The translations under genes were made by a program, and so were the position numbers. A stretch of 64,000 nucleotides of DNA from Trypanosoma brucei (lineage: Eukaryota). Below, piece by piece: positions 18,561 through 42,336 of the stretch (positions within the stretch are counted from its first letter, which is position 1; every line of letters starts with the position of its first letter). The notes under the pieces are model-generated. The model searched no databases, had not been told where the DNA came from, and saw only the letters and a list, made by a program, of their open reading frames with translations. The DNA is taken from contig CP000066.1 in NCBI GenBank assembly GCA_000002445.1, positions 96,001-160,000 of the forward strand. The letters are read 5' to 3'.

Positions 18561-20510
18561 AGAAGAGGCAGAAGCCTTTCACTCTCAAGTAAACTGTTTT
18601 CGCAATTAAGGAAGACCGAGGACTAAAAGCTGAACGTTTGCAACTGGTCACGCATAATTAGTTGGGAAATAACATAAAATAGTTCCTCTGGAAGCAAATA
18701 TGGTGCGCTCTGACCTAGATGGCAATTCGTTGAGAGCACGTCCCGTACAGAGCACGATGTACAAAAAGAAAGGATTACTTTTCCCCGAATGAAGTATATA
18801 AACACTAGTGGGGAACAATTATCCTTTTTATATTGCCTTGGAATCGGGAGTGTACAGCTCATTTGGGAGGGTAGGTTTCCAAAATCAGCTTTTTGCAGGG
18901 ACCCGCTTGCTGCCAACAGCCTTCTGTTAAAAAATACTAATTTTTTTTTTCTATAGGCGGAACGAGGTTGGTATTACCGTGGAACTGAGAATAGATCAAC
19001 GTAATGGAAATTACGCCCCGTTCATTATAATTTTGCAGTCTTCTTTAACTCCCCTTTTAAAGGATCCGATTTTTTAGCACTATGAAGTAAGCCTGAAGAT
19101 GTTTTAATGCATCCATGCACTGAAATGGCTCTACACCTAGGGCACATGGAAACGACAATGCGCTATTCCGAGGATTTTTTATCGCGAACCTCACGCGGTA
19201 GCTATTAAAGCGGTGAGTGAAACAAAAAGAGCCGCTACTCCCAGCAAGATTAAATTTTTGTAAAGGAAGGGTAATACTGCCATTCTATCAAGACAACATT
19301 TGAGTGGAGTTGTTGAAAGCTTTGCTGGTGCAGCGGATCAAGTGAAAATACCGATCCATGGTGCTGTAACCCGCTGATACGGCGCCATGGTAAATACAAT
19401 GTTTGTTTCATTCCTGTAAATGAGGGGTTAAGTAGAAATGATAGTTTTCGAAGGATCTACCACAGTGCCACACAACTTGTGCCAAAAGACCACCTTGATT
19501 TCCGGCACAACCGCTACATTGTCCTTAAATGCAGCAACCTGAAACGCGTTGCTACAAATGTGTGGGTGATGCCCCGCGCTTCCCCAATATATCTAACCGC
19601 ATCGCTTTGGAAACAACCCAGTGAAATGTTTCACTCGTTTCCACCGCTTCCCCGTTATTCCAATGTTTGTCACCGTTCCCACATATACTTCGCAACTTTA
19701 CCTCTGAGGTGCTGTCCCTCGATAGAGGTTTAAATAATTAAAAACCTTTCAACAAAAGCTAACAGTAAGAGGCAAACGCGCATTACGCATATGCACATGC
19801 GTGCACAAACTTCCATCTTTATTCTAAAACACCTCCATTTCACAAAAGAGACAACGGACATCTTTCCCCTAAAAAGGATTTTGCTTCACTCGACGCACTA
19901 GGCGTTACATCCAGGGTTATGATCCCCTCGTTCAGAAGGCACTCCAAGCCCTCTTCACACACCACATCCGCTGTTCTCTACCCTCCCTTAAGGCCACCTT
20001 ACAAACGCACCGTTTTCACCGTGTTTTGACTTCACTGAAGGGCGGTGGTTTGGTAATGAGCGTCCTCTTAATACTCCAAGGATGGGCACCTGAAATGTAA
20101 ACGATGGTGTTGGTCATGTGTGTACCGTCTTTCTTATAGCATGTCGCCCACTGGCAACTCACATTTAAGCCATAGGTCACAGAGGAAACAACTCAACGCA
20201 GTAACTGAGAAGCCACTCTTCCACCAGTGCTTCATTTCTATATCCTACAGCCTTTTCCAACTCCTAGAAAAACAGAAAGGTTCTGAAAGTTAAGCAACCG
20301 GTAAGAACATTGCTTCATACACACAAAATGTACATACAAGCATCTTAGACATTATAAAACCACCGCTGCACAAGGTTTCGACTTTTTCCACGTAAACACA
20401 GCATGTTAATACACAAAAAATTGTTAAGCACATGGGAGCCGCAAACTCGCACAAAAGCATGTATATAAACACATATGTTTGTGAAGGGAAAATGTATATG
20501 AACATGTTTG

Positions 20511-21503
20511 TCAAATGGTGGAATTAGTATTACTCACATTACCAGCAACACCAATGTCAAGTAGCAGCGAAGTGAAGTTTCCATGGACCCAGTTAAAGTG
20601 GGAATTGAGGGAAGTAATATTTGCCATCATATCCAGAAGCGCGAAAGGCGGTTTCCCAGCAGCAAAAGGTGTGATGAGGGTGGAGAAAATTTGCTGTATC
20701 TCGAGCGTCAGTTGAAAATAGAAGGCACCATGCCGGTCTTCGCCTCTCCACTCCAATATTTTTCTTGAACTCTGCACGGCGCCACTCCTATATAAGTTGT
20801 CCCTCAGTCTATTAAGGCATTCGCTTACGGAACCATTTAGTATCGTTATTGTGAGACAGCCATCCTTATACTTTTGAAGGGAACTCTCAGTCACGCTGTT
20901 TTCTAGAGGACAGGTTTGGTCACCACAACTAGCCTCAAAGTTTTCAACGGCGCTAAACTCTTGACGGCTACATTTAGCCATATCGGAATCCAGCCCTACT
21001 GCCTTCACGTCATTCCAAACAGTCTTTGTAATCACAGCAATGGCTGTATAGTATTTATTCGCTTTGATGAGAGTATTGGGTAATTCGTTCCTGACTTCCC
21101 TCACACTCTCATTAACCTCAGCAAATAATCCACCCACCTTAGCTACAAGGTCCCCCATTTCATTTCCATAGGATATAAGTTTTTCCAATTTATCATTTTG
21201 TTCTCCCATTGAGCTGCTGAAAACACTCAAGTATGTTGTGCTTTCGCCTGTTTTCCCTTCCATATCATCTAATATACGAGACGCATTTGCGTATACTTCT
21301 TCATTCACAAACAGCCTCTGCTCTCCATCAGTGTATAATTTGTTTAATGCATTTGACAAGCAATGTAGGTAGCATAACGAAACATTTATGTGTGCAAACC
21401 CCCCGACGTCCGCCACTAACCTGCATTTGCCGCCCTCTTCCTCTCCACCAATGCAAATAACAAAAAAATATAAGATAATCAACTCCACAGCTACGACTTT
21501 CAT
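20511..21503 (-). CDS. ESAG-like surface glycoprotein (ESAG1-family-like, tentative), 330 aa, apparently lacking a C-terminal membrane anchor
   Basis: It has an N-terminal signal peptide (MKVVAVELIILYFFVICIGG) and many N-glycosylation sequons. It is a paralogue of 24686..25789 and of the fragment at 24149..24562. It ends NTNSTI without a hydrophobic tail, so it is possibly truncated. Confidence 0.5.
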   Translation of the reverse strand: MKVVAVELIILYFFVICIGGEEEGGKCRLVADVGGFAHINVSLCYLHCLSNALNKLYTDGEQRLFVNEEVYANASRILDDMEGKTGESTTYLSVFSSSMGEQNDKLEKLISYGNEMGDLVAKVGGLFAEVNESVREVRNELPNTLIKANKYYTAIAVITKTVWNDVKAVGLDSDMAKCSRQEFSAVENFEASCGDQTCPLENSVTESSLQKYKDGCLTITILNGSVSECLNRLRDNLYRSGAVQSSRKILEWRGEDRHGAFYFQLTLEIQQIFSTLITPFAAGKPPFALLDMMANITSLNSHFNWVHGNFTSLLLDIGVAGNVSNTNSTI

Positions 21504-21548
21504 TGTCTACAGCCCTACACAAAAGAGGAAAAAAGTAAAACACAAACG

Positions 21549-21764
21549 TTATTCAAAAGCATAGGTTGCCAAAGGTACACAGAAATAATGGAGAAACAGT
21601 TCTCCCGACACTAGGAAAAATCGCATAAACAATATTTCTTCAAGAGCCATTAAACCAGCTACCATGTGCTTTTTCATTGTGGTGAATCCCTCATCATCTA
21701 TCATATAGTTGGCAACCTCACTTCCCTTGTGCTTTCTCCCCCTCCACCTGAAACACTCACGCAC
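21549..21764 (-). pseudogene. C-terminal fragment of another ESAG1-like family member
   Basis: The sequence ...YMIDDEGFTTMKKHMVAGLMALEEILFM parallels the C-terminus of the 367-aa paralogue (DMIDEEGFTMRKQHTLIGLIFFAAILVM). Confidence 0.45.
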
Positions 21765-24096
21765 GGTCGCATTTCAGGTCAGCAATTATCTTAATTTTCC
21801 GTTTCGTAAAGCCACTTAAATGGTTGATTTAGTTTGTTGTTTATACAGTGACGGACTTGCACCCACCCCTAATCGCTCTGTATTTTATGATGCAAGAGGC
21901 CTCAGCATCCTCTGAAACTGCGCCTGTACTAGAGTATTTATAGTACGCGAGAAACCGCTAGTAGCCTACACTGCAAATGATCTATACACGGTAACTGCAA
22001 GATATTCAACGTTCGTAATACCGAAGTTCGCGTTTTCACCGATCGTCAACTCAGCTGCGTTGGCATCCGACAAAATTATTTGGTTTTACTATTATTCCCG
22101 TATGTGCCAATATTCGACCCATAATGCAAAAGAAGAGTGCATAATGGATTAGCAGTACACGACACCCTTAGCATATTGGTGTGGAAACATATTTTTGAAC
22201 TCTTCATCTCTGGTCCTTTTGCCGTCGATATGTTTTTGATGCAGAGCACTGATTTATATAATTCCCTCCTCTATATGGGACGTTCTGGAAATTTCCCTTC
22301 GCACAAAGCTACCAACCTCTCATTCCGTACTGGAGTAATGTTATTGGACGGTAAAGCTTCTCATCACAGGAACAGGTGCTGTACACCGTGTTTAATGGCA
22401 ACACCGTATTCGATACATGTTTGTGAATGTGAGAAACGCGTCAAGCATGCAGAGCTCTTTCCATTCCCACTTCACGCACGGTCCATGCATTAAGGTCCGA
22501 CCATGACGGCACAAAGATTTGCGCGAGTACGGCCCACCAAGTCCAATTTTTACTTCGCATACAAGGTACACAGATACATCCACACTTGCACAAGCGAGCA
22601 CAGCAACAAAAAGGTGAGTTAATTTCGTGAACACACATCAGACAGACAGGACCGATGCATCCACTCATAGGTCGTACATTAGCGCGTGCCGGAGCAAGTA
22701 TGCACTTATATTTGGGAACTCAATCGTAAAAAAAATGTAAAAATGCAATTAATAAGATGTGGAAATACCAACTTTGTCGTCGGTAAGGTTGGCATCGAGT
22801 AGCAGCGAAGTGAAGTTCTTGTGGATGGCATGAAGGTGAAAGTATAAAACCTTTACTTCTTTAAGCAGGGGATAAAGAACGGAGGGCAGTAAAAAGGCAG
22901 CAAAGGATTTGACCAGAGGGGCGAGCATTCTGCTTACGCCGATCTGAAGACTGAAAGAGTAGCAGTCCTCCCTACCTCTGTTGGTGCTCCATCATAAAAA
23001 GTCTCCCATATGGTGGCCATATAATCACGTGACAACGCATTTTTGTAATATTTACCCAATCAATGACGGACGCTTTGTTTATATTGCTCTTAAACCAATA
23101 CTAACCGAGGGCAACTTAACCCGATGAAAAAATGCCACCCTAACCACTACCACATCATTTCTATTGCGTGGTCAACATGCCTTACCTCCAATGCGAAAAG
23201 TGCAGAAACATTAAAAAATTTCATCGGGGCCATCAGTCAGCATCAATAGTTTAGACATATCAACGTTTCATTACACATATAGCTGCAGTTAAAAAACTGT
23301 ACTTCTTACTAAAGGGTAAACTTCACCAGCAAATACGCCTCATATTAATATTCATTCTCTCATCTTAATTATTCATATCCACAATCTTAGATGTAATCAC
23401 CAACAGTAATGACTTTAAAGAAAATTATTCTTCCGCGCTTTCCCTCCGTCGAAAGAAATACCACGCCTCAACAATATAGTTACTTGTCGACAGCATAAAA
23501 AAATATTCCTCTTGCGATTATAAAGGACTCGAACCCCCGGAAGAAGGCAAAGAAAAGGAGTGGTTGGAGTAATTATAGTTCAAATAAACCCGCGAAACGT
23601 ATCTAATCCAACACAACCTGTCACAAACTGCGTAACCCCAATACTGCCTGAGATGAAAAAAGTGACGTTGAAGCACGAATACAGTAAGGTTATGTTAGAC
23701 ACCGCTTCGAACGGCACAAAAGATAGTTGTCCGGTAGCAATGGAAACGATAAAGGAGCTGAAGATGCCCTGTACTTTAATTGTGAGGGCGAGAGCATGGC
23801 CATTCATCCATTTAAGTACATCACTTGAGTCTTTTACAGCGTCACTAACATAGGGGACATTCCTAGGTGATTGGTGGAAGAAGTTTATAATACGGCTATG
23901 CACAACATTTATTTCAAGACAGTCATTCTTGTATTTTTTGGAGAGCGTCTTCGCTCACACCACCTAGTAGTGGACACGTATGGGAGCTACACGTATATTG
24001 AAACACTGCGGTATTTTTGACTCCCTTCAGGTCGCACTTGCGATTATCTTCAGATACTTTTCGTCCATCAACCCCTCAGACCGTTCCTGTAATCTC

Positions 24097-24562
24097 AGCA
24101 ATGGCTGTATAGTATTTATTCGCTTTGATGAGAGTATTGGGTTATTTCCTACCTCACTGCTCTTACATTCCCATTAACCTCAGCAAATAATCCACCCACC
24201 TTAGCTACAAGGTCCCCCATTTCATTTCCATAGGATATAAGTTTTTCCAATTTATCATTTTGTTCTCCCATTGAGCTGCTGAAAACACTTAAGTATGTTG
24301 TGCTTTCGCCTGTTTTCCCTTCCATATCATCTAATATACGAGAAGTATTTGCGTACACTTCCTCATTCACAAACAGCCTCTGCTCCCCATCAGTGTATAA
24401 TTTACTTAATGCATTTGAAAGGCAACGGAGATAACATACGGACTCACTTAAAGGTGCGTCACCGTGAGAATCTGTTATCAACGTACACTCACTTTCCTCC
24501 TTCCCATCAATACAGATTACAGAAAATAACGAAACAACCAATTCCACGATCGTAACTTTCAT
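24097..24562 (-). pseudogene. Truncated duplicate (N-terminal 137 codons) of the ESAG-like gene at 20511..21503
   Basis: Nucleotides about 24097-24425 are about 95% identical to about 21041-21370. ORF 24149..24562 (MKVTIVELVVSLFSVICIDGKEE...) matches the N-terminus of the 330-aa protein. Homology stops abruptly at 24097. Confidence 0.7.
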
Positions 24563-24685
24563 TACCTACAATCGCATGTGACGAGAAGCATGAGAGAGAA
24601 GCATACACACCATCAAACGAAAGCGATGGGTGCCACAAGTGTATAGCCTCAATAACAAAGATGTTGCATACAACATAACATTGAA

Positions 24686-25789
24686 TCACATAACCAGAAT
24701 TGCTGCAAAGAATATTAAACCAATTAGGGTATGTTGCTTCCTCATTGTGAATCCTTCTTCATCTATCATATCGTCGTCATCGACACTTCTCTTGCGTTTT
24801 TTCCCACTCTCTCTGAAATACCTGCGCACCATCGGGCTCTGAGTTAACAGTTCTTTTAGTTTATTTTCATACTCCACAAAGGAGGTAAGAGTTGGCTCTA
24901 CATCACGGTACTGTTGTGCAATACTTTCATATCCGTTTCTAACCAAAGTGTAATTGATGATAAGTTTGGGCACCGTGTCACTAGACATTATGGTAACGGC
25001 AGCTTCTTTACGATAGGTAACAAATCCTCCAGTAGTTCCCACTATGAAGGATCCAGCCCCCCCATTTGCAACATCTTCCGTACCCATGATCCAGCATTTT
25101 GTGTCGTTATTGTCTGTAAGTTCAACTCTCTGGTCAGTTTTATATTTATCTAGCGCAGCCAGTACACCATCATCTGACATATCTTTTATAACGGACATAT
25201 TACACTCATCTGGAGCCTTTGCTGCTTTGTGCCCAGCATCATCACTTCCACATCCATTTTCTGAAGGGGCAGACTTCTCTTTCACCAAACAACACCAATC
25301 GTTTTTGTCACCCTTTGTTTGCTCAAACAACACTACTAGATCCCTCAACACTTGTCCTATTGACAGTGATGCATTCACAACATGATAGGAAACTCTTACA
25401 ATGTTTAAAAAACTAGTATCCATTAACTGAATAGCTTTATCTGTATTGTTCATTACTTTTTCCATTTCCACATATGTTTTCTTTATATTTTCCATATCAC
25501 TTCCATTAACAACCCCTATCTTCTCCAAACCCTGCACTATTGCCTTCCATGTCCTCCCCTTTACACCATGCCTATGTCGCCACTCCCGAAACTTATCTAC
25601 CATTTCTGTAGCATTTTGGTGCTTCTTCAGAATCTCAGTGCTCACAACCCTCAAGGCATGACTGAGATTGCATAACGTTTTGGCTCCCTTGAGTGTCATG
25701 GCCTTGCCGGAAGGCTGCCCCACAACTTCCCCAATAAGGGAACCCAGCACTGTCAGACACACTGCAAGAAAAAGTGATATCACCTTCAT
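24686..25789 (-). CDS. ESAG1-like surface glycoprotein (tentative), 367 aa, with signal peptide and C-terminal hydrophobic anchor
   Basis: It has a signal peptide (MKVISLFLAVCLTVLGSLIG) and multiple NxS/T sites. An acidic stretch (KRKRSVDDDDMIDEEGF) precedes a terminal hydrophobic segment (TLIGLIFFAAILVM). It is distantly similar to 20511..21503. Confidence 0.55.
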   Translation of the reverse strand: MKVISLFLAVCLTVLGSLIGEVVGQPSGKAMTLKGAKTLCNLSHALRVVSTEILKKHQNATEMVDKFREWRHRHGVKGRTWKAIVQGLEKIGVVNGSDMENIKKTYVEMEKVMNNTDKAIQLMDTSFLNIVRVSYHVVNASLSIGQVLRDLVVLFEQTKGDKNDWCCLVKEKSAPSENGCGSDDAGHKAAKAPDECNMSVIKDMSDDGVLAALDKYKTDQRVELTDNNDTKCWIMGTEDVANGGAGSFIVGTTGGFVTYRKEAAVTIMSSDTVPKLIINYTLVRNGYESIAQQYRDVEPTLTSFVEYENKLKELLTQSPMVRRYFRESGKKRKRSVDDDDMIDEEGFTMRKQHTLIGLIFFAAILVM

Positions 25790-25970
25790 TATTTATCTAA
25801 AAACAAAACATGTTTATATGGGATAATTTAATACAGTTACATCTCATGAGGAGCTAGCACACACATGAACATAGATACACATATATACTATACCATTTTA
25901 CATACAACAACAAAGAAACGAAACAACATGACATAACATAGTATAACATAAATAGTAATGTAGAATTAAA

Positions 25971-27335
25971 CTAAAACACACAAATAAGAGATAAAATTAA
26001 TAATGTAAACCCCCCAGTTTCCACATTCAAATGAGTAAGTCCATCATTATTTACTTCAGCATTGCCACCTTCATCATCACCCTTACCTTGGCTACTTTTC
26101 CATAGCTCCGCATCACCACCAAGTTTCACCTCAAGATATATTTCCTCTGCCTCATGTTGGTACTCTTCCAACTCATGAAGATGACTGTCAGCTTCTTTGG
26201 CATATTTTGTCATTTCTTGTAGCTGCTCGGTAGCATTAGTAAGGCGGTTGTACCATGGAATTCCACCATTTTCAAGTGTGTGATTGTAACTGACACACGT
26301 GAATCCAGCAGTATGGCCCGTGCATGTGCGATTTTTGTTTTTTCCCGTTCTCACATAACCAAAAATACCCTTCACCTGATATTCATCCTGTTCCAAATTC
26401 ACTAATGCATCAAACTGAGCTAGTGCACTCTTTAAGGTTTTCACATTCGATGCAACATTTTTGTACACACAAGCTTTACTAATCACATCCCATGCCTCAG
26501 TGTGGTTGTATTTTATTTTTGCAGGATCACAAATTCGCCCGTCCCCATCGCAATGTTCAGCCATCATTGTCCAGTTACCATTTTCCGGCCTTCTTATTTC
26601 ATCTCTACAAGGACAATTGAACCCATTATATATATTATTATTACCTCCATCCTCTTCAAGGTTTTCTTTCCTTTTGATCTCTTCAGTTATAACAATGGCT
26701 TCTCCCACACATAGACAGAAAAAGTCATTGATTAACGTCTTTCCAACTGACTTGTCTCCATAAGAACCGCAACTCGTACCTGCATTATCAATACTATTGA
26801 ACAGCAGTGACTTGTTTCCCCTCATGGCTTGCTCCAGAGTTTTATTCTCATTTCTTGCAACATCCACAGCATCGCCATACACAGCCCTCAGCATATTTTC
26901 TTCAGCAGACCGACCAGCATTCAAGGCTTTCGTCCTATTCATTTCCATTTCTTCCTTCAGCGCTTTCGCCTTCTCAAACAGTTTCTCTATATTCTGATAC
27001 GCCGTCGTGCTCTTAGCTGATTTATTGGAACCTTTATTAGCACCCGCAGCTTCTGCCTCACTGACCATTTCCTCCAACTTCTTCACAATCTCACCCTCCT
27101 TTTCACGATTCTTAAAGGAAGGTTGTGGGGCTTCTGCTTGCGTAATTCTGTAAATCTTGCACAGTGTCTCGAACTCGCCAACGTTATGGTACTTATAGCC
27201 GTCACCGATATAGTCCGTAATCTCACTCCAGTCAACCGACTCTGTTGTCCATCTCCCCGCATCCAAATCGCCCTGAAAGGAGGGAGACAAAACAGTCACA
27301 AACAGCCCAACAGTAAACACTATTTCATACCTCAT
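25971..27335 (-). CDS. ESAG2-like / VSG-related GPI-anchored surface protein (tentative), 454 aa
   Basis: It has a signal peptide (MRYEIVFTVGLFVTVLSPSFQG) and a Cys-rich, N-glycosylated extracellular domain. Its hydrophobic C-terminus (GGFTLLILSLICVF) is typical of a GPI signal. It lies between the ESAG8-like and ESAG1-like genes, as in a bloodstream expression site. Confidence 0.5.
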   Translation of the reverse strand: MRYEIVFTVGLFVTVLSPSFQGDLDAGRWTTESVDWSEITDYIGDGYKYHNVGEFETLCKIYRITQAEAPQPSFKNREKEGEIVKKLEEMVSEAEAAGANKGSNKSAKSTTAYQNIEKLFEKAKALKEEMEMNRTKALNAGRSAEENMLRAVYGDAVDVARNENKTLEQAMRGNKSLLFNSIDNAGTSCGSYGDKSVGKTLINDFFCLCVGEAIVITEEIKRKENLEEDGGNNNIYNGFNCPCRDEIRRPENGNWTMMAEHCDGDGRICDPAKIKYNHTEAWDVISKACVYKNVASNVKTLKSALAQFDALVNLEQDEYQVKGIFGYVRTGKNKNRTCTGHTAGFTCVSYNHTLENGGIPWYNRLTNATEQLQEMTKYAKEADSHLHELEEYQHEAEEIYLEVKLGGDAELWKSSQGKGDDEGGNAEVNNDGLTHLNVETGGFTLLILSLICVF

Positions 27336-30300
27336 TGTGATTATGTTTTTACTTTTATCAGTTAAGCAAATTGGGGCAAAAGCTTATTATCACAGTCGTT
27401 ATTGTTATTGGTAGACACATTCAACAAAATATACACATTAAAATATCAAAACAAAAGCCAACAACTGGCACAAAACAATCACAGTAGCACCCAACAAGGG
27501 GGGAAACACATCCCAAAATACATTCACATGGGTTCTCTCTCCTCAAGTTGGATATCAACATTAAACACCCTCATAGTTGTTTTCCCATTGGTTACCTCAC
27601 TCTTCCTAATTTCTAAATTCAAAAAATTCACTTTCTTAATCTTCATGCTAGTTTCCTCACTTTCCCAACTGAGCTGCGCTGCCGCTTTCTTGGTTTCCTC
27701 AATGAGTTTATCCACTACCATAATGAGTACCGGCACATTCATCTTACGTTATTTCCAAACCCTCTCTCGGTTTCATTAGCTTCAGTTATTACTTTATGAC
27801 TTTATTGGCTAGCACATTACGCGCTTTATTTGCATGCATGTATTACCCTTCTCTATTGCAATCAACTCTACTGCTGGGCCTCATTTAGCATATCATCCCT
27901 TCTTTATACATGTGCTGACAACACTCTTCGTTGCCCTCTCTGCGTGCTTGCACAGCTCCTTGCCTCCCATTTTCTTAAATCACACACTAGTAAAGATAAA
28001 AGTTGGATTTTCAAAACACTCTCATTGGACACCTCTGCTCGTAAATGAGGCCTTTGATCGCACTGTGACATTACGGGATATTATGTCAGTCACCAACACA
28101 CAAAACAGTCCCAGAATAAAGAGTGGCCTCCCCTGTCAGCACCCTCATTTAGATTATTTGCCACTCACCATAATTACCATCCTTATAGATACACTCGTAA
28201 CAACGGAAGTTATATACGTAGCTACCCGTCCTATCAGTAAACTCTTACCACCCTTAATTCACATGCAAAGTGCGTTAACACACTCCACCACCCAAAACAT
28301 AGATGATGGAGGGATAGTCATATTTATAATAACTCACCAATAAGATAACTCAAACAGGAGCACCTCGACAGAAATATATGATGAGTTAAGTAACGTTCTC
28401 TCCATTCAACCGACCTTACCAGATGTCAAACCCAGGACGACCAACATGGCAAACATCAGGCTGGTGCAGCGAAAGGTGTTATACGACTTGGAGAGTGTTC
28501 AGTGGCTAGCACCGATGAAGACTGGCATAACACCATTCCCTAAGTGCGGACAGCTTCTTTTTGGTGCCAAGATTTAGCACAAGATAAGTTTCAAGATCGA
28601 AAGTTACAACCTCCACAGATGAAATTGCCACACCGAGATCGGCGCAGCCATGCCATGGAAATGCCATAACTTCCCATCCAACAATTTGTTGTATCGCCCA
28701 TACAACGTAAAGGGCAATCGCCGATTCGCCTTTGTGTACGGAAGGCTGAGAAAAACGGTATATACAGTCAGTAGTTTGTTGCAATTACGTCAATATAATC
28801 ATCTGTAACTGAACCCGTGGAGTCTTTAAAGCCATAATGCGCCTTAAAGTTTTGTCTGACAGCGTTTTTTAGTCGCTTAATAATCTCTTTTCCCCCCTTG
28901 ACCCGCTGCCGTGAAGTCTCCGTGACGTGGTGTGTCTGAATGCACTTCTTCCCCCTTTCCTAAGGTATCCCAATTGCACTTTTTTAAATGTGCCCCATCA
29001 ACTCCCACCCGAGTGAAGTGCAGTAGTCGTATCAAATCCGTGGGTCTGTAACCTGAGTGTATCCATGTTGGATGGAGAATAGAGGAACAACAGGAGGCAA
29101 CACCATAACACGCCTTCCTACTAGTAAGGTATAAGTGGAGGACTCGCACCGCCCACCTCTTGGTCCCCTATCTGGACGATACTACCACCCTTTCCCAGCA
29201 ATCCTGTCCTTGTGGAACGCTTTTCGCGACGAAAACTCCCAACACCTGGGGTTGGTTCCTTTTTTGAAGGGGCGAACGTTGGCAATCTTAACAGAAGGGA
29301 AAACGGTTGCGGTGTTGGCGCCGTCTTCGGTAACGCTGAGTTCTGCTTTGTAACAGACAAGTTTGGCGGGTTACTTTTCGTGCACGTTCAGTCGCTTAAC
29401 ATACCACCTCCCCTTTCATTCGAAGGGAAGTCTACTTTCCAAGTTAACACAACAACTTCCCTTATTTTTCAGTGGTTCCTGTTCTCATGTTCAGTGTGAC
29501 GATTTCACGTTCCTTCTCCGAAGGATCACTTTTGACGTCACCCGCTATGGTGCGCATCCGATACCCCCACTGATTTTATTTGCTCCAGCAGACGCCTCTC
29601 ATTACCCTTTTGACGACCTTAACAGCGCACCGTTTCCATAATTATGGTCAATTTTCTCTGCGCTACGGTAGCAGTAACCCCCTGAGCTCGAGGTGTACAC
29701 TTCCATTGGTATAACTCGCCAAATCCATCATCGAATCTATCCAGCTTTGATTGTTATTAAAGTTACTCACGACCATATACGCTACCACATCGCCATCCCC
29801 AAAGCTGCAGATATCAGAAAAAATATATACTCTCATTCAGAGTGAGCACCCCCAGAAGTTTCACATGTGCCACGACCCGTGAAACCCGAACAGGCATCAA
29901 ATAATGCCTCCTTTTTGAGTTTTTTTAGGCCATTACAGCGTTTTGAGTCCGTTGTTGCTGTGTCCATCGTTCTAAGACGGATAGATTCCAGGCCCTCAAC
30001 ATCGACAACCCTGTTATTCACTAATTTTCTGCCCTACCGCATGGGGGCTCACCCCTTTCTCGCCCACTTCACCTCTTTACAACCAATCTGATAACAGGAA
30101 GAAAAAGACGCATTTTAGGAGTTTGTTAAGCACCAATGAGTGCAAATGAAATAAACACAGGAGAGCCTTTTCTCTCGTGGACACTGATACGAAATCATAA
30201 AACTACTGTATAAATAAGTGAAAGTATATGAGGTATTATCGCATAAAAGAAGGATGTTAGGAGAAGAGGGGTAGAAATTGACACTAGGCTATGTAAGTTT

Positions 30301-30587
30301 TTAAAGGCCGCGGGTAGTGTCCCCGCTAGCTCAGAATATGCATGTATTTTGGATACCCGCGACATGTGCTTATATGTGTGACCTTCCTTATCATTTTATT
30401 TAATTACAGTGTATATTATTATACTTCCCAGACACAGAATATGTATCTCTATGGTGGAAAATATTAAGTTAATTGCATAATAATTTTTACAAACACTACC
30501 CTAGTCGTGGTGTAGTATTAATAAAAGAATATTAGACGACAAAAGAAGATAGTTCCCAGTGGGATTTTGAGTCTAGACGATCGTCGC

Positions 30588-32708
30588 CTACATATATTCA
30601 TCATCCATCCTTTTAACGTAGCAAGCATGAGTTTCATCTGTTACTTCCACATCAACACCTCTGTCCATCAAACCCTCAACCAAATTCCTGTCTGCATTGT
30701 TGTCATCGATGTAGAGAACACACAGGCGTGGGAGATTCATGAATTCGACAATACCATTCCTTATTGTCCCGCAATTCCGTAAATCGAGAGTCAGCAACCC
30801 CCTGCAATCTCGCTGTCCATGAATGTACCATAGTCTCGTGCAATTCCGCAAATCAAGCGTTCTCAAGTTGCCGCACCCATCCAACCACAAGTCCGTGATA
30901 TTTTCACAGTTGCTTAGGTAAAGGTTTGTGAGATTCCGGCACTCGCACCCATTCAACCAAACCTCCCTCAGGCTCACACAATCGTTAAGCTCCACTGTCA
31001 TCAGATTTGAGCAGCCACTTAACATACTGAAATCATCTATTTTGCTGCTCCCTGTAAGCCTCAGCGTCTTCAGATTCTTGCATGCGCCTAAAACACTCAG
31101 GTCTGGATTCCCTCCACAGTTGCACAAATTTAGTGTCTCTAAGTTCGTGCAACCACGGAGTGCACTGATGTCTTCCAACGTTTTACAATCAATCATCTCT
31201 ACAGTTGCAAGCTTCTTGCATTCCTCCACACCAGTAAGGTGTTTCAGTCTCGCGCACTCCGAAAGATTCAACATTTTCAGACTTCCACAATTCCTTAATG
31301 GCCTCAAATCGGACAAACTGATGCACCCGGTAAAATCCAATGTGGTGATATCCTTACACTCCCTTAGCAGCGTGATGTCCTTGACATTTTTACATCCTCT
31401 GAGTATCAATGTCCTCAATCTTGTGCACCCATCTAGAGCGTACAGTCCCTTCATCCTTGCACATCCAGACAAGTTCAGTGTGACGAACCCTTCGAATTCA
31501 CGCAGAAACATAACATCCACATCCCTCACAACCACACCACCCAAATTGAGCCCTGTTAGCTTCGGGTTCCCGCATACTTGGCGGACGCCAACCTCAATAT
31601 TGCGACTCCCTCCAATTGAGAGGTACTCCAGAGTCTTCATTTTCGCCAGTGGTTGAATATCAGTAACAGCGAGGCAATTTTCGCAGTTCAAATGAACCAG
31701 TTGCTTGAATGTACTGACTTTAATGACACACTCATCATCAATGCATGTACTGGCCAAATTCAGTTCCCTCAAGTTCGGAATCGCAGCCAGCTCCTCCAGC
31801 CCCTCCTTCATGTTAATGCACTTCTCAAGCGACAACACCTCCAGCGGACTAATTTTTCCCAATGCTTTTATATCAGAGATATTCATACACTCACTGCAAT
31901 CCAAATCAGCCAAATGCGTACTCCCGCTGAGACTCAAGATGCACGCGTCGTTAGCCGCGGTGCCTCTCAAACTCAACTTCCTCACGTTGGGCAGTGCACA
32001 AATGTGTTCCAAACCCTTTTTAATATTTTTACAACCCGATAGGGAGAGCTCCTCGAGTGTTTTTATCTCTGCTACAGGTGAAATGTCCGTGATATGATGG
32101 CAATTATTGCAGCTCAGATGCAAGAGTATCCTATTACTGCTGATCTCAACGACGCACTCATCGTCCAACTCCGTGTTGTCCAAAGTCAATTTCCGTAAAT
32201 TACTCAACGTCATAATATGCTCCAAATCAGTCTTCAACTTGCTATATCCGCTGAGATTGACTTCCTCCAAAGTTGGAACTCCAGAGAGTGCCCGAATTCT
32301 TGACAGATCCACGCAATTTTCCAAATCCATCACAGTCCAATTACTCTCCTCTGCTTTAAGGACCTGCTCATATATTTTGGACGGCACCTTTCCTCCCATT
32401 CGCTTCGTTAATTTCACAGGATCCACACTGCCGCTACAATCCTCACTCCCGATAAATGTTGTAGCGACTGAGCTTCTTCTTCTGCACCTCGCAAACCGGG
32501 TGTTGTCCAACTCATAACGGAACGCAGGCCGACGGGAACATACGCTTATATCGCATAGAGGACACACTGATAAATCGCGATAGCACGTGCTACACAGAAC
32601 GTGCTCACATGGCAACACTTCAATGGGAACCGCACACTTCATTAGGCACTGGGGACACCCTACTTCTTCCCTCACTGGGCATTCCGTCACCCAGGAAATC
32701 TTCACCAT
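30588..32708 (-). CDS. ESAG8-like protein: N-terminal C3HC4 RING finger plus a long leucine-rich-repeat array (about 706 aa from MVKISW)
   Basis: RING motif CPQCLMKCAVPIEVLPCEHVLCSTCYRDLSVCPLCD. More than 18 tandem LRRs of about 23 aa (LxxLxLxxCxxIxDxxxL). The long ORF 30588..33089 has a non-conserved-looking 127-aa N-terminal extension. The start was set at Met128 by codon counting from the ORF end, with ±3 nt uncertainty. Confidence 0.7.
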   Translation of the reverse strand: MVKISWVTECPVREEVGCPQCLMKCAVPIEVLPCEHVLCSTCYRDLSVCPLCDISVCSRRPAFRYELDNTRFARCRRRSSVATTFIGSEDCSGSVDPVKLTKRMGGKVPSKIYEQVLKAEESNWTVMDLENCVDLSRIRALSGVPTLEEVNLSGYSKLKTDLEHIMTLSNLRKLTLDNTELDDECVVEISSNRILLHLSCNNCHHITDISPVAEIKTLEELSLSGCKNIKKGLEHICALPNVRKLSLRGTAANDACILSLSGSTHLADLDCSECMNISDIKALGKISPLEVLSLEKCINMKEGLEELAAIPNLRELNLASTCIDDECVIKVSTFKQLVHLNCENCLAVTDIQPLAKMKTLEYLSIGGSRNIEVGVRQVCGNPKLTGLNLGGVVVRDVDVMFLREFEGFVTLNLSGCARMKGLYALDGCTRLRTLILRGCKNVKDITLLRECKDITTLDFTGCISLSDLRPLRNCGSLKMLNLSECARLKHLTGVEECKKLATVEMIDCKTLEDISALRGCTNLETLNLCNCGGNPDLSVLGACKNLKTLRLTGSSKIDDFSMLSGCSNLMTVELNDCVSLREVWLNGCECRNLTNLYLSNCENITDLWLDGCGNLRTLDLRNCTRLWYIHGQRDCRGLLTLDLRNCGTIRNGIVEFMNLPRLCVLYIDDNNADRNLVEGLMDRGVDVEVTDETHACYVKRMDDEYM

Positions 32709-35700
32709 TATGGGAGTGGGGTCAGCTAAACCGTTAACACACGCAAACGGAGAGAATGAGACAGTGTAAAAGCACAGCAATACTACTTTATTTGTTCGTC
32801 TGCAGGCGCATGTGTAGGCGTATGTAAGTGTGGATGAATTTATATTGATACACGTGCCCGGATTAAATATGAAGTAAGGGTTGGCAACAAAGCATTTACA
32901 TGTGTTGTCCGGTAAAAGCGTTGGTAGTAGGAGGAGTTGGTGTAGTTTTACTGCTTTGAACAGGGCATGACACGAATTGAAGGCTGGGAAGCCACTGCAC
33001 TTAGATGTGGTAAGTGTACACGGTGTCAAGGAACTTTTTGATAGCAGAGTAACTGTGACAGCGGTCAGAATTGCCCTGTAGACATACATTCACATATGCT
33101 TCCTCCAGACGTCGGTTTGGAAAATCAAGCCTCCTGTGGGTTTCTTTCTGATTTCCGAATCGACTTCGTTGGTGCATGCTTTTTACCCGAAGAGCGTCTG
33201 GTGTCTGGTTGCGAAGCGTTTTTATCTTTCCTGGCCCCTCAAAGTTTTTCAATCTACCCCTACATTTCTGATGAACGGCATCTCTTTTTATTGGACTGAC
33301 CCCAGCATGCTGTTGCACCAAAAGGTTACATCGTGTTTACAGTGTCAGTCTTTCCTGGGTGGACGATGCTTCACCAAATCTTCTTTGAAAATTCTCCCCT
33401 CCATATCCAGAGAGTTTTGATAAGAATATGATTACAAACTCTCTGGATGAACACTTCACTCCTGCGTTCCCTATTCTCAATTTTAATCGCATTTGCGACT
33501 GACCTCTCTAAATCTCCACTTTCGCTTTGACCCTCGTCAGCCGTCTCCTTCGTATTTATTGCCGAGTTTCTCCTTTACAGCAATATCCCTCCAGCAAATC
33601 TGGTTGTGCATGAGAGACAAGTGGCCCTTTTCAAGTTTTCCCTTTCTCTGCGGGTTTGGCCGGTTTTCTCACACGGCGCGTTTAAGTCTCCACTCCTTTC
33701 TTTTCTCTGACTCTCATTTACAGGACCTCTCCTCCCTTCGTGCATTATGAACTCTTATCGCCGTGGATCCTCCTCACCCATTGATTCGCTATCTCCCCGA
33801 TGGACGCCGAGGCAAGCTGGAATCAAATCCCAATCCTCCTTGTCCTGTTGGTAGCCTTACCCCAATCGAGCACACTTTCGAAGCACATAACACGACACAT
33901 TTGACCCCCTCAGGAGTCCTAAGTTAACCAAAATACGAACCCTTAGAAAGTTAATGCATTCATAAACCTTAAACCCCGCTGGCAGCATGAGCACACTTAC
34001 ATATCGAAACCACTTAACCTCTCGCAGCCATTGAGCCATTCCACCGTGGCTCAACATTACCGCAAACAACAAAGAGAAAAATCTCCCACTTCCTTGCTAC
34101 TTCCCCTTATTTTGTGTCACGTAACTATCACCTACAACGTCCACACTGCCAAGAAACCGCTTCCAAGCCCTCCTACATCTGCATGCGACTAATTACCCCT
34201 TTCTTACACGCATCTATATGGGTATAGTTCCTCCCACCAAATTAAGAGATCAAGAAAACCCCACACCCTCCACATCCGAACACCCTCGCATATACAAAAA
34301 ATAAACTGCCTGCAGTCCCTGCTCGACCCTTTTCTATGGTTCCAAACAATAATCCTGCTTAGTCTCCGCGATGTAACGAAGTTCCTCTCCTATCTCCCTT
34401 CTCCATCTTCCAGATCCTCCTCCCTTGACCCAAGCTATGCTTTACTCTCTGCCTTTCCTCGCACACATATTCTGAGGTGCGCACCACGACTATCAACCAC
34501 TGGTAACCCTGTCTCACAACCACATGTATGGCATTCCCAACTTCATACACAGGACAGAACGTACACCCCTAAAGTGAAAAAAAAACCTTGTGCACACAAT
34601 TCCTTCACAATGGTGATTGTGCTTACGCCCCTCAACCGCTTCTCTTGGCGGCCCTGCGTTGAAGTCCGCTCTCACCAAACTCTGCTCGCACGAGCCCTTC
34701 CTAACCAAAATTAAACTTCACAAACACGGGGAGTAGGATATGTTGCTTCTCATTGACCATTTCCTCCGCCTTCCGACTAACATCTGTCCCCATATCCCCA
34801 CCACACCTAACACTAAATACGAGGAATTTTGCATATGTTCTATGAGTCCGCACGCCTTGCATCTAATTGCTTATAATTCAACCCACTTCATCACGCTCAA
34901 TCCGAAAAGTCTAGGAATGCGACTCCAAAGTGTGGCACCACCTCCTTCCAGGTTATACACCCTCTTTTCACTTGAAGGAAGGAGCTGATGCCGCATAAAA
35001 ATAGTTTACTTTGGGAAATTCTAGACGACAGTATTGTGATCGTCGTCATTGCTGTTACCGTGTCTCCACTACTGTCTCAGCGCTTTGGACGTGAGCTCGT
35101 TTCACCTACCGGTCAGACGCATCTGGTAACGGCCATACTGGCGCTTGTAGCGTTGGGTGTTGCCCCATGCTCTTTATATCACACAAACCTGGCAGTGAGT
35201 AGTTTCTGCTAATATGCAATGAATCCTCGAGGCAGCTTCCGTTGCTGCTGTGCCTCAGCTGTTGTTGTATGCGTATATCTTCCGTGATTATTTTTACCGC
35301 CTGAGAAAGGAAATCTTTGCAGAAAAAATGTTTGGAAGCTTTGCTCATGCAAGCGACATCAGGTAGTAACGTCCGACTTGGCTACGACTACACCACGGTT
35401 AAAAGGCTATTGTCCCGATTCATGCCGGGTACGCAGAAGGTGCACCACGGGGCAACCGTCACCATTGGAAACCCTTAGAAAACTGCAGATGGGCGACCAC
35501 CTGGAGCTTATCATCTCCTTCCACACCCTCACTCGTGATGTCATCATTCCAAAAGCAGTGGAAAAGAAGGTATAGTCGGGAAGCGGAGCTAATGTAGAAT
35601 TCAAACTATCAAACATATAGTGTAAATTTTGGTCCAAACGCTTAACGACCCAGTGCACATACGCACAACGGCGCGTCACCTTCGCAACACCGGTCAAGAG

Positions 35701-36746: not shown

Positions 36747-37100
36747 TTAATCCCGAGCGTCACCGATGCACTTCACCGACACGACGACTAACACTAATAC
36801 CATCGAAACGACTCCCATCCATGCCAGGAGCGCAGCACGAGTCGAGAGCTCCCCCTCTCCTGCTTCTGAACTTCCAAAAGTGGGGCACTCAATTCCACAA
36901 ATATATGTGTGATCGCCATACATTTCGTCGTCGTCTTTCGGGCAAACATCATTACTCGGATTTGCAGCTGTGACTGCATCCGTTGGTGCCGCAGCAGCGG
37001 AGCCGGGTGAGCCCGGTACGGCTGAAAAGGGGTTTGGGTTGACTTCATTCTCCGCCGTGGTGACAGCATTCGCCTCTTCCGGTTTGACGGCTGCGGCCAT
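36747..37100 (-). CDS. Small hypothetical protein with C-terminal TM segment (117 aa)
   Basis: The ORF is Ala/Pro-rich with an acidic stretch and a terminal hydrophobic helix (LLAWMGVVSMVLVLVVVSV). It is isolated in an ORF-poor region and may be spurious. Confidence 0.25.
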   Translation of the reverse strand: MAAAVKPEEANAVTTAENEVNPNPFSAVPGSPGSAAAAPTDAVTAANPSNDVCPKDDDEMYGDHTYICGIECPTFGSSEAGEGELSTRAALLAWMGVVSMVLVLVVVSVKCIGDARD

Positions 37101-42287: not shown

Positions 42288-42294
42288 CCACACA

Positions 42295-42334
<40 letters not shown>
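42288..42334. repeat. (CA)n dinucleotide microsatellite
   Basis: acacaaacacacacacacacacacacacacacacacacacacacc. Confidence 0.9.

Positions 42335-42336
<2 letters not shown>

What the first reader, a model, noticed from the sequence alone, without database searches (positions are those of the whole stretch)
20290..33100. Inverted expression-site-like ESAG block (ESAG8-like, ESAG2-like, ESAG1-like in several copies) abutting the VSG array
On the minus strand the order is RING/LRR (ESAG8-like), then a 454-aa GPI protein, then a 367-aa anchored glycoprotein and further paralogous copies. This mirrors the ESAG8, ESAG2, ESAG1 order of bloodstream expression sites, but ESAG3 and ESAG11 are missing. 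The block is transcribed away from the plus-strand VSG array, and a retroelement relic lies at the convergence. It is a candidate relic or chromosome-internal copy of an expression site, and a possible source of ESAG recombination.
Basis: partly seen in the sequence, partly recalled or inferred. Interest (0 to 1): 0.6.

Follow-up and report, generated by a model that had tools for sequence, protein, structure and literature searches.

The report
Non-telomeric ESAG gene cluster, T. brucei chromosome 3
This is the already annotated cluster of expression-site-type genes (an ESAG8-like RING/LRR gene, then ESAG2, ESAG11 and ESAG1 copies) where the chromosome 3 core meets a silent VSG array in Trypanosoma brucei; the genes are intact and conserved, so it is not a decayed expression site.

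Summary
The window is T. brucei TREU927 chromosome 3. On the minus strand it carries:
- a RING+LRR gene annotated LRRP (706 aa). It is collinear with ESAG8 but only 28-31% identical.
- ESAG2 (454 aa).
- ESAG11 (367 aa, 86% identical to a named ESAG11 protein).
- a broken ESAG1, two small fragments, and an intact ESAG1.

No expression-site hallmark is present: no ESAG3/4/5/6/7 relics, no 50-bp or 70-bp arrays, and no same-strand VSG or telomere.

The block is syntenic in T. b. gambiense and T. b. equiperdum. dN/dS is about 0.2. The ESAG2-11-1 part is a dispersed cassette, also found on chromosome 7, with patchy gene-conversion-like divergence. The LRR gene evolves like a single-copy core gene.

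Verdict: a known, functional chromosome-internal ESAG-family cluster, not a relic. An ancestral "proto-expression-site" linkage remains possible.

The parts
30588..32708 (-). RING (C3HC4) + leucine-rich-repeat gene, 706 aa, annotated 'LRRP, putative' in TREU927. Most likely Tb927.3.580, the ESAG8-related chromosome-internal LRRP. The open frame runs on to 33089, but that extension looks like translated 5' UTR.
   Evidence: exact match to the annotated 706-aa protein; collinear with BES ESAG8, aa 28-687 against 21-629, 28% identity, RING aligned; 50% identity to the chromosome 1 LRRP; the RING motif occurs only in this protein, the chromosome 1 LRRP and the ESAG8s among 200 collected proteins. 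Jackson 2013 on Tb927.3.580. The gene ID is inferred from numbering.
28263..30587 (-). Spacer downstream of the LRR gene, with no detectable coding relic. It is the position ESAG3 occupies in a BES.
   Evidence: no minus-strand open stretch longer than 96 aa; no Pfam hit; tblastn with the ESAG3-like sequence finds nothing, even at E 10; 97-98% identical to T. b. equiperdum, the background level.
20272..28262 (-). ESAG2-ESAG11-ESAG1 cassette including about 0.9 kb of 5' flank. It is a dispersed segmental unit also present near the left end of chromosome 7 (locus L004).
   Evidence: 28262->24094 aligns to L004 at 79%, and 21363->20272 at 71%; the L004 437-aa gene is the Tb927.7.180 orthologue; elevated, clustered divergence begins at about 28.27 kb.
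25971..27335 (-). ESAG2 (454 aa; XP_843653), with a b-type VSG-like domain and a hydrophobic C-terminal tail.
   Evidence: VSG_B, E 2e-25; exact match, and the 93%-identical orthologue is named ESAG2; dS 0.189, dN/dS 0.20.
24686..25789 (-). ESAG11 (367 aa; XP_843652).
   Evidence: 86% identical to Q9Y021 'ESAG11 protein', and 97.5-98.6% identical to the T. b. gambiense and T. b. equiperdum orthologues; unrelated to ESAG1; dN/dS 0.25.
23667..24562 (-). Broken ESAG1 copy (frameshifts and stops), probably Tb927.3.540 'ESAG1 pseudogene'.
   Evidence: Pfam ESAG1 hits on both ORF pieces. N-terminal 141 aa are 78% identical to the intact copy, and the rest 33-47%; annotation of Tb927.3.540.
22776..23015 (-). 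Isolated ESAG1 C-terminal fragment.
21624..21797 (-). ESAG11 C-terminal fragment (aa 310-367) just upstream of the intact ESAG1. It is a remnant of a second cassette copy.
20511..21503 (-). Intact ESAG1 (330 aa; XP_843651).
   Evidence: PF03238, E 3e-117; 97% identical to the T. b. gambiense orthologue and 88% to T. b. rhodesiense 'ESAG Im'.
21374..24087 (-). About 2.7 kb present in TREU927 but absent from T. b. gambiense and T. b. equiperdum, which each have one hybrid ESAG1. The breakpoints lie in a 351-bp tract that is 93% identical between the two ESAG1 copies (24088-24438 and 21027-21376).
15944..17062 (+). Degenerate ingi/DIRE-type retroelement fragments in the convergent zone between the ESAG block and the VSG array.
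   Evidence: 16811-17062 matches the first 74 aa of an ingi endonuclease ORF (85% nt), and 15944-16705 is 39% aa-identical to the ingi region downstream of the RT domain.
17685..18368 (+). 228-aa ORF (XP_843650, 'T. brucei spp.-specific protein') belonging to a dispersed repeat family.
   Evidence: its >=90%-identity cluster has 21 members on many chromosomes; no Pfam domain.
36747..37100 (-). Small conserved 117-aa ORF with a C-terminal hydrophobic segment, on the same strand upstream of the LRR gene. Probably part of the same transcription unit.
   Evidence: exact match to proteins annotated in T. equiperdum and T. b. equiperdum.

Best explanation
This is the annotated, non-telomeric ESAG-family cluster at the left core/subtelomere boundary of T. 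brucei chromosome 3. It consists of functional 'GRESAG-type' genes and is not a dead expression site.

It has two parts with different histories.
1. A single-copy RING+LRR gene, the LRRP that is one of the two closest non-ES relatives of ESAG8.
2. A dispersed ESAG2-ESAG11-ESAG1 cassette, partly duplicated in tandem in TREU927. The cassette exchanges short sequence patches with paralogous cassettes elsewhere.

Shown here: gene identities, order and orientation; synteny in three subspecies; purifying selection; cassette boundaries; clustered divergence; and one unequal-crossover polymorphism.

Inferred:
- The genes form the telomere-proximal tail of an RNA polymerase II polycistronic unit. It starts in the gene-poor 33-51 kb stretch and ends head-on against the silent plus-strand VSG array.
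- They supply bloodstream-stage ESAG-type proteins independently of which telomeric site is active.
- The patches come from gene conversion.
For: Identity:
- Exact matches to TREU927 proteins XP_843650-843653 on the 1.65-Mb contig.
- The LRR protein is exactly the annotated LRRP.
- Pfam ESAG1 and VSG_B hits. ESAG11 is 86% identical to Q9Y021.

ESAG8 relationship:
- The alignment with BES ESAG8 is collinear and includes the RING, at 28-31% identity.
- The RING occurs only in this protein, the chromosome 1 LRRP and the ESAG8s among 200 collected proteins.
- This agrees with Jackson 2013.

Not an expression site:
- No tandem arrays in or above the block.
- No Pfam domains in six-frame fragments of 33-51 kb or of the spacer.
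- No ESAG4 or RT relics and no ESAG3 relic.
- No telomere repeats near the block.

Conservation and function:
- 11.7 kb is collinear at 96% with both T. b. equiperdum and T. b. gambiense.
- dN/dS is 0.18 (LRRP), 0.20 (ESAG2) and 0.25 (ESAG11).
- Published data show Tb927.3.580 mRNA enriched in bloodstream forms.

Cassette dynamics:
- 79% nt homology to the chromosome 7 cassette ends at 28262.
- ESAG2 dS is five times the LRRP dS.
- Mismatches per 100 nt have variance/mean 5.85 in the cassette (0 of 10,000 Poisson simulations reach this), against 0.92 in the LRRP CDS.
- There is a 2.7-kb copy-number difference at a shared 351-bp tract.

Literature:
- Internal ESAG2/ESAG11 clusters at convergent strand-switch regions are up-regulated in bloodstream forms.
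- Significant PHI recombination statistics are reported for non-ES ESAG1, ESAG2 and ESAG11.
Against: - The polymerase, the transcription start and the stage regulation of the ESAG2, ESAG11 and ESAG1 genes at this locus were not tested. Only the LRRP and the ESAG1 pseudogene appear in the expression tables I read.
- I could not compare ESAG2 or ESAG1 directly with Lister 427 BES copies, because no BES DNA was reachable.
- The ESAG3 reference is identified only by its positions in a T. b. equiperdum ES-like contig, not by name.
- Clustered mismatches could partly reflect old allelic polymorphism rather than conversion.
- Random placement does not explain well why a RING-LRRP and the cassette sit in BES order. 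My rough estimate of that chance is below 1%. This leaves room for a historical link to expression sites.
Confidence: 0.8

Rival explanations
1. Proto-expression-site module. The linkage RING-LRRP - ESAG2 - ESAG11 - ESAG1 on chromosome 3 preserves the ancestral chromosome-internal arrangement. The telomere-proximal half of the bloodstream expression site (ESAG8-2-11-1) was copied from it. ESAG8 then diverged rapidly, and ESAG3 was inserted later in the expression sites.
For: - Same order, and same orientation towards the nearest chromosome end, as in a BES.
- The chromosome 3 and chromosome 1 LRRPs are the only non-ES proteins with the ESAG8 RING+LRR architecture. Jackson 2013 calls them possible ESAG8 progenitors.
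- Only the chromosome 3 LRRP is linked to the cassette. The chromosome 1 orthologue has none within 10 kb.
- In a neighbour-joining tree the one named ESAG11 reference available (Q9Y021) groups with the chromosome 3 ESAG11.
- Chance adjacency in the right order looks unlikely (own rough estimate, below 1%).
Against: - Bootstrap support for the Q9Y021+chromosome 3 ESAG11 grouping is only 60%, against 40% for the alternative.
- The LRRP is closer to the chromosome 1 LRRP (50%) than to ESAG8 (31%). ESAG8 is about equally distant from RING-less LRRPs.
- Homology with the chromosome 7 cassette stops 0.9 kb upstream of ESAG2. The LRRP and the cassette have different evolutionary dynamics, as expected if the cassette was inserted next to a resident gene.
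- No flank homology was seen between the LRRP 3' spacer and the ESAG8 3' flank in L001.
- Published trees put non-ES ESAG2 and ESAG1 in clades separate from ES copies, without singling out chromosome 3.
Confidence: 0.2
2. Decayed relic of a former bloodstream expression site that became internal, for example through telomere healing and addition of a VSG array.
For: - BES-like gene order.
- One broken ESAG1 and small ESAG1 and ESAG11 fragments.
- Retroelement debris and a VSG array next to the block.
- ESAG11 is 86% identical to a named ESAG11 protein, and ESAG1 is 88% identical to a T. b. rhodesiense 'ESAG Im'.
Against: - The LRR gene is far outside the tight ESAG8 clade, whose members cluster at >=90% identity.
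- LRRP, ESAG2, ESAG11 and one ESAG1 are intact, and the three genes tested are under purifying selection.
- No relics of ESAG3/4/5/6/7, and no 70-bp or 50-bp repeats.
- The adjacent VSGs are on the opposite strand.
- The position is conserved in three subspecies.
Confidence: 0.05
3. Coincidental juxtaposition. A mobile ESAG2-11-1 cassette happened to land next to an unrelated resident LRRP in a recombination-prone boundary region, so the resemblance to BES order has no historical meaning.
For: - The cassette is dispersed (chromosomes 7, 1 and 11) without a RING-LRRP partner elsewhere.
- There is a sharp cassette boundary, and the LRRP and the cassette have different dynamics.
- Both gene kinds favour strand-switch and boundary regions.
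Against: There are only two RING-LRRPs in the genome. One of them sits immediately upstream of the cassette, on the same strand and in BES order. Under random placement this is improbable (own estimate, not a computed statistic).
Confidence: 0.3

Closest known systems
Bloodstream VSG expression site (BES), distal half ESAG8-ESAG3-ESAG2-ESAG11-ESAG1 (Hertz-Fowler et al. 2008, PMC2567434)
   Same: The order and relative orientation of a RING/LRR gene, ESAG2, ESAG11 and ESAG1 are the same, and both are transcribed towards the nearer chromosome end. The 'ESAG2-11-1 cluster' is a recognised unit. Duplications and pseudogenes also occur within BES.
   Different: This block is not telomeric and has no same-strand VSG. 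It has no 70-bp or 50-bp repeats and no ESAG3/4/5/6/7. The LRR gene is only 28-31% identical to ESAG8. ESAG11 is intact here, whereas it is usually a pseudogene in BES.
Chromosome-internal ESAG2/ESAG11(/ESAG1) clusters at convergent strand-switch regions: Tb927.1.4890-4900, Tb927.1.5100-5120, Tb11.01.6230-6250 (Veitch et al. 2010, PMC2837033), and the chromosome 7 cluster (L004)
   Same: The cassette content and order are the same, and so is the location at the end of a transcription unit in a convergent region. It shares 79% nt homology with the chromosome 7 copy, including the 5' flank.
   Different: Only this copy lies directly downstream of a RING-LRRP. It carries a TREU927-specific partial tandem duplication.
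LRRP genes Tb927.3.580 and Tb927.1.3670, the closest non-ES relatives of ESAG8 (Jackson et al. 2013, PMC3605285)
   Same: The window's LRR gene is the annotated chromosome 3 LRRP. It is 50% identical to the chromosome 1 gene and shares the N-terminal C3HC4 RING and the LRR body with ESAG8.
   Different: The assignment to the ID Tb927.3.580 rests on gene numbering, not on a direct ID look-up.

Membership tests
Bloodstream expression site (BES) | Telomeric: a terminal VSG on the same strand, followed by TTAGGG repeats | tested here: not met
   The only TTAGGG-like run is 1032-1122, about 19 kb from the block and behind an unrelated VSG 3' end. The VSGs next to the block are on the opposite strand.
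Bloodstream expression site (BES) | 70-bp repeat array between ESAG1 and the VSG | tested here: not met
   TRF finds no array between 13.7 and 42 kb apart from a 31-bp repeat at 24574. TAA-type repeat runs occur only at 2.2, 8.4 and 15.5 kb (within or just beyond the VSG array) and at 52.9 and 58.2 kb, outside the block.
Bloodstream expression site (BES) | 50-bp repeat array upstream of the promoter | tested here: not met
   No such array anywhere in the 64-kb window.
Bloodstream expression site (BES) | RNA polymerase I BES promoter | not testable with these tools
   No reference promoter sequence was available in any reachable collection.
Bloodstream expression site (BES) | ESAG7/6/5/4 upstream of ESAG8 | tested here: not met
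   No Pfam domain in six-frame fragments of 33090-50934. No tblastn or tblastx match to ESAG4 or to the gene upstream of it in L001.
Bloodstream expression site (BES) | ESAG3 between ESAG8 and ESAG2 | tested here: not met
   tblastn with the ESAG3-like sequence (window 2751-3767) finds nothing in 27336-30587, even at E 10. Caveat: the reference is called ESAG3 from its positions in L001, not from a database name.
Bloodstream expression site (BES) | Gene order ESAG8, ESAG2, ESAG11, ESAG1 | tested here: met
   compared with the published order.
ESAG1 | Match to Pfam PF03238 over its full length | tested here: met
   330-aa ORF: E 3e-117 over profile positions 1-227 of 227. The broken copy hits the same profile in two pieces.
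ESAG11 | Full-length similarity to the protein named ESAG11 | tested here: met
   86% identity over 367 aa to Q9Y021 'ESAG11 protein', and 74-78% to other annotated ESAG11 genes. That Q9Y021 comes from an expression site is my recollection of Redpath et al. 2000 and was not checked.
ESAG2 | b-type VSG-like domain, about 455 aa, hydrophobic C-terminal tail, placed directly upstream of ESAG11 | tested here: met
   VSG_B E 2e-25. Sequence and position. The 93%-identical orthologue is named ESAG2.
ESAG2 | Direct similarity to ES-borne ESAG2 copies | not tested
   No ES ESAG2 sequence could be retrieved. The search that would have returned one failed.
ESAG8 sensu stricto | N-terminal C3HC4 RING followed by an LRR body | tested here: met
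   The RING at aa 18-52 aligns with the ESAG8 RING, and the alignment is collinear to the C-terminus.
ESAG8 sensu stricto | Membership of the tight ES clade (ES copies cluster at >=90% identity) | tested here: not met
   28-31% identity to BES ESAG8. The ESAG8 representative ranks about 13th among phmmer hits, behind ordinary LRRPs.
ESAG8 sensu stricto | Nuclear localisation signal | tested here: inconclusive
   Only one short basic run (RRR at aa 76-78) was found by a simple pattern. No NLS predictor was available. Jackson 2013 reports an NLS for Tb927.3.580.
Chromosome-internal ESAG2/ESAG11 clusters | Non-telomeric, at the end of a transcription unit in a convergent strand-switch region, not syntenic outside T. 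brucei | tested here: met
   Convergent with the plus-strand VSG array. Core genes start at about 51 kb. Synteny outside T. brucei was not tested.
Chromosome-internal ESAG2/ESAG11 clusters | Bloodstream-form enriched mRNA | not testable with these tools
   Literature only: Tb927.3.580 is enriched in bloodstream forms. I found no data for the chromosome 3 ESAG2, ESAG11 and ESAG1 genes.

The most novel reading that the evidence does not exclude
The chromosome 3 block is a surviving 'proto-expression-site' module. On this reading, the ancestral chromosome-internal linkage of a RING-LRR gene with ESAG2-ESAG11-ESAG1 was copied to a telomere and became the distal half of the bloodstream expression site. 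The papers I could search name Tb927.3.580 as a possible ESAG8 progenitor, but they do not mention that it is physically linked, in BES order, to an ESAG2-11-1 cassette.
Probability: 0.2. Interest if true: 0.6.

Novelty: already known. Interest (0 to 1): 0.3.

Why it matters
As it stands, this is an annotated locus made of known gene families. Non-telomeric ESAG2/11 clusters, recombination among non-ES ESAGs, and the kinship of this LRRP with ESAG8 are all in the literature.

Its residual value is evolutionary. It is the one place found here where an ESAG8-type gene and the ESAG2-11-1 cassette are linked outside a telomere, in expression-site order. That makes the question of how the expression site was assembled testable with existing BES sequences.

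The locus also offers a compact natural contrast. A single-copy gene sits next to a recombining multi-copy cassette, with a sharp boundary at about 28.26 kb. This could be used to study patchy gene conversion among ESAG families.

Tried and rejected
1. The look-up of encoding contigs on the TREU927 proteins found nothing on record. It did work for the T. b. equiperdum and T. b. gambiense assemblies.
2. My third homologous-protein search used a chimeric query: ESAG2 plus X-linked six-frame fragments of the spacer. It returned nothing, not even ESAG2 itself, so it is a technical failure and not evidence. It cost me the direct comparison with ES-borne ESAG2.
I pasted stop-free fragments instead. 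No domains turned up in the spacer, in 33-51 kb, or in 15.6-19.7 kb.
4. Rfam at gathering threshold found nothing in the window.
5. I first read window 2696-2987 as an ingi 5' end. It is really the N-terminus of an ESAG3-like pseudogene that an ingi interrupts in L001.
6. Polypyrimidine tracts upstream of each ORF were no different from background, so I dropped them as evidence.
7. Checking which allele matches the chromosome 7 paralogue at variable sites (89%) is close to what ordinary mutation would give. Only the clustering of differences is informative.
8. The ESAG11 tree does not resolve whether the Q9Y021 ESAG11 reference is sister to the chromosome 3 clade (60% against 40% bootstrap).
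9. I considered a centromere link, because the chromosome 1 LRRP flanks the chromosome 1 centromere. The chromosome 3 centromere is at Tb927.3.3410-3430, far from this window.

Full report
**What the window is**

Three of the flagged ORFs match proteins of Trypanosoma brucei brucei TREU927 exactly. The proteins are XP_843651, XP_843652 and XP_843653, on a 1,653,225-bp contig, which is the size of chromosome 3. The neighbouring 228-aa ORF is XP_843650.

- A plus-strand VSG array occupies roughly the first 13.6 kb. It gives VSG_B and VSG C-terminal domain hits, contains a frameshifted VSG, and shows typical VSG C-termini.
- Housekeeping genes begin at about 51 kb: a nucleoside transporter, a GNAT acetyltransferase and a DEAD-box helicase-like ORF.
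- Published tables name Tb927.3.540 as an ESAG1 pseudogene and Tb927.3.590 as an adenosine transporter.
- The block therefore corresponds to roughly Tb927.3.5x0-3.580, at the left core/subtelomere boundary. The IDs are inferred from gene numbering.

**Checking the observation**

All the ORFs exist at the stated coordinates. The identities, read along the minus strand from high to low coordinates, are:

| Coordinates | Feature | Evidence |
|---|---|---|
| 32708-30588 | RING+LRR gene, 706 aa, annotated 'LRRP, putative'. The 833-aa open frame only adds a low-complexity extension. | |
| 30587-27336 | 3.25-kb spacer | |
| 27335-25971 | ESAG2, 454 aa; VSG_B domain; orthologue named ESAG2 | |
| 25789-24686 | ESAG11, 367 aa; 86% identical to Q9Y021 'ESAG11 protein' | |
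| 24562-23667 | broken ESAG1 | |
| ~23015-22776 | ESAG1 C-terminal fragment | |
| 21797-21624 | ESAG11 C-terminal fragment | |
| 21503-20511 | intact ESAG1; Pfam E 3e-117 | |

- The 367-aa protein is not ESAG1-like. It has no significant similarity to ESAG1 (E 0.18).
- ESAG11 is therefore not missing.
- The block runs towards the VSG array, not away from it, so the two are convergent.

The retroelement relic is real. Degenerate ingi-type pieces lie at 15944-17062. Next to them is a 228-aa ORF whose >=90%-identity cluster has 21 members on many chromosomes.

**Comparison with an expression site**

The published BES order is ESAG7, 6, 5, 3, 4, 8, 3, 2, 11, 1, and the authors speak of an 'ESAG2-11-1 cluster'. 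The block reproduces 8-2-11-1. It also points towards the nearer chromosome end, as a BES does.

Every other BES hallmark that I could test is absent.
- There are no 50-bp or 70-bp arrays.
- There are no telomere repeats near the block.
- No coding relics are detectable by Pfam in six-frame fragments of the spacer or of the 17.8 kb upstream.
- There is no match to ESAG4 or to an ingi reverse transcriptase taken from an ES-like T. b. equiperdum contig.

For ESAG3 I had no named reference. An ESAG3-like pseudogene sits in the window's own VSG array, at 2751-3767 on the plus strand. Its homologues in the T. b. equiperdum ES-like contig occupy exactly the two BES positions of ESAG3: upstream of ESAG4 and just after ESAG8. 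With that sequence as query, nothing is found in the spacer, even at E = 10.

**The LRR gene**

It aligns end to end with a Lister 427 BES ESAG8, aa 28-687 against 21-629, and the C3HC4 RING is included. Identity is only 28-31%. Identity to the chromosome 1 LRRP is 50%.

I searched the gene against 1.84 billion representative proteins. The ESAG8 representative ranked about 13th, behind ordinary Trypanosoma LRRPs.

This reproduces Jackson et al. 2013. They name Tb927.1.3670 and Tb927.3.580 as the RING/NLS-bearing closest relatives of ESAG8 and as its possible progenitors.

**Conservation**

The syntenic loci of T. b. equiperdum (L003) and T. b. gambiense (L006) are each collinear with window ~35770->24090 at about 96% identity over 11.7 kb. 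They carry LRRP, ESAG2, ESAG11 and one ESAG1, followed by the 228-aa ORF and an opposite-strand VSG.

Both subspecies lack about 2.7 kb that TREU927 has (24088->21373). The junction falls in a 351-bp tract that is 93% identical between the two TREU927 ESAG1 copies. This is the signature of an unequal crossover or a partial tandem duplication.

Between TREU927 and T. b. equiperdum:

| Gene | dN/dS | dS |
|---|---|---|
| LRRP | 0.18 | 0.038 |
| ESAG2 | 0.20 | 0.189 |
| ESAG11 | 0.25 | 0.057 |

These genes are being maintained by selection, not decaying.

**Two parts with different dynamics**

Homology to another internal cluster runs from 28262 to 24094 at 79%. That cluster is L004, near the left end of chromosome 7 next to the Tb927.7.180 orthologue. 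The homology resumes over ESAG1 down to 20272. It defines an ESAG2-11-1 cassette with about 0.9 kb of 5' flank.

Divergence between subspecies is 1-2% upstream of about 28.27 kb. It rises abruptly inside the cassette. There the mismatches are strongly clustered.
- Cassette: mean 5.2 mismatches per 100 nt, variance/mean 5.85; 0 of 10,000 Poisson simulations reach this value.
- LRRP coding sequence: mean 1.33, variance/mean 0.92.
- ESAG2 dS is five times that of the neighbouring LRRP.

I read this as short-patch gene conversion from diverged paralogues, confined to the cassette. It agrees with the published, significant PHI recombination statistics for non-ES ESAG1, ESAG2 and ESAG11. I did not identify the donors. 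The chromosome 7 copy is not the donor of the main patches.

**How it most likely works**

Shown: an intact, conserved, selected cluster of ES-type genes at the end of a minus-strand gene run, meeting a silent plus-strand VSG array head-on across retroelement debris.

Inferred:
- The run is an RNA polymerase II polycistronic unit.
- It starts in the gene-poor 33-51 kb stretch. GC skew changes sign at about 42-44 kb, and a (CA)23 tract lies at 42289-42335.
- It includes a small conserved 117-aa ORF.
- It provides bloodstream-stage ESAG-type products whichever telomeric site is active.

Published transcriptomes show Tb927.3.580 enriched in bloodstream forms. They also show other internal ESAG2/ESAG11 clusters at convergent strand-switch regions strongly up-regulated in bloodstream forms. 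I found no equivalent data for the chromosome 3 ESAG2, ESAG11 and ESAG1 genes.

**Rivals**

- Decayed expression site: disfavoured, for the reasons above.
- Ancestral 'proto-expression-site' linkage: not excluded. Only the chromosome 3 RING-LRRP is linked to a cassette, and the chromosome 1 orthologue has none within 10 kb. Chance adjacency in the right order seems unlikely. The support is weak, however. The ESAG11 tree puts the Q9Y021 reference with chromosome 3 in only 60% of bootstraps. The LRRP is no closer to ESAG8 than RING-less LRRPs are by raw identity. The sharp cassette boundary suggests an insertion next to a resident gene.
- Pure coincidence: this is the third option.

**Novelty and verdict**

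The genes, their families, the existence of non-telomeric ESAG2/11 clusters, recombination among non-ES ESAGs, and the ESAG8 kinship of this LRRP are all already described.

I did not find one point stated in the searchable literature: that the RING-LRRP and an ESAG2-11-1 cassette are physically linked here in expression-site order.

I therefore score the finding as already known, with modest interest.

Noticed in passing
window 2751-3767 (+): An ESAG3-like pseudogene (339 codons, one in-frame stop, signal-peptide-like start) sits inside the VSG array. No Pfam family matches it. I call it ESAG3 because its homologues in the T. b. equiperdum ES-like contig L001 lie upstream of ESAG4 and directly after ESAG8.
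   Followed up: partly
window 3-632 (+) and 1032-1122 (+): A VSG C-terminal end with a GPI signal and a 16-mer-like 3' UTR motif is followed, about 400 bp downstream, by an interstitial run (TTAGGG)2.5 plus degenerate copies. It looks like a remnant of a once-telomeric VSG now buried in the array.
   Followed up: partly
window 17685-18368 (+): A 228-aa ORF (XP_843650, 'T. brucei spp.-specific protein') with two C-x2-C...H-x4-H-like motifs. Its >=90%-identity cluster has 21 members spread over many chromosomes, including one near the chromosome 1 LRRP. This behaves like a dispersed repeat or mobile-element ORF, but it has no Pfam domain and no clear ingi match.
   Followed up: partly
window 33090-50934: A 17.8-kb stretch with almost no coding signal lies between the LRR gene and the nucleoside transporter. 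GC skew changes sign at about 42-44 kb, and a (CA)23.5 tract ((TG)n on the minus strand) lies at 42289-42335. It is a candidate divergent strand-switch and transcription-start region.
   Followed up: no
window 21374-24087, against L003 and L006: TREU927 carries about 2.7 kb (the 3' part of the broken ESAG1, an ESAG1 fragment, an ESAG11 fragment and the 5' part of the intact ESAG1) that T. b. gambiense and T. b. equiperdum lack. The breakpoint lies in a 351-bp tract that is 93% identical between the two ESAG1 copies.
   Followed up: yes
window 18400-21373 against L003: The intact ESAG1 and its 3' flank are only 63-90% identical between TREU927 and T. b. equiperdum, while the T. b. gambiense ESAG1 is 97% identical at protein level. 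The T. b. equiperdum copy therefore seems to have been replaced by a different paralogue.
   Followed up: partly
L001 (T. b. equiperdum CM010679.1, last 23 kb): An ES-like contig end carries ESAG4 and then ESAG8. An ingi retrotransposon is inserted into the ESAG3 copy just downstream of ESAG8, and a VSG-domain gene follows on the opposite strand.
   Followed up: no
window 50935-52503 (+): The nucleoside transporter gene (probably Tb927.3.590) is the only clear plus-strand gene between the minus-strand ESAG unit and the minus-strand core genes at 56.5-64 kb. Its longest ORF starts at a GTG well upstream of the likely Met (MMLGFES...).
   Followed up: no
L005 (T. b. equiperdum chromosome 1, LRRP orthologue of Tb927.1.3670): The chromosome 1 RING-LRRP also lies in a gene-poor region with ingi and DIRE fragments upstream. 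The literature places it at the edge of the chromosome 1 centromeric strand-switch domain.
   Followed up: partly
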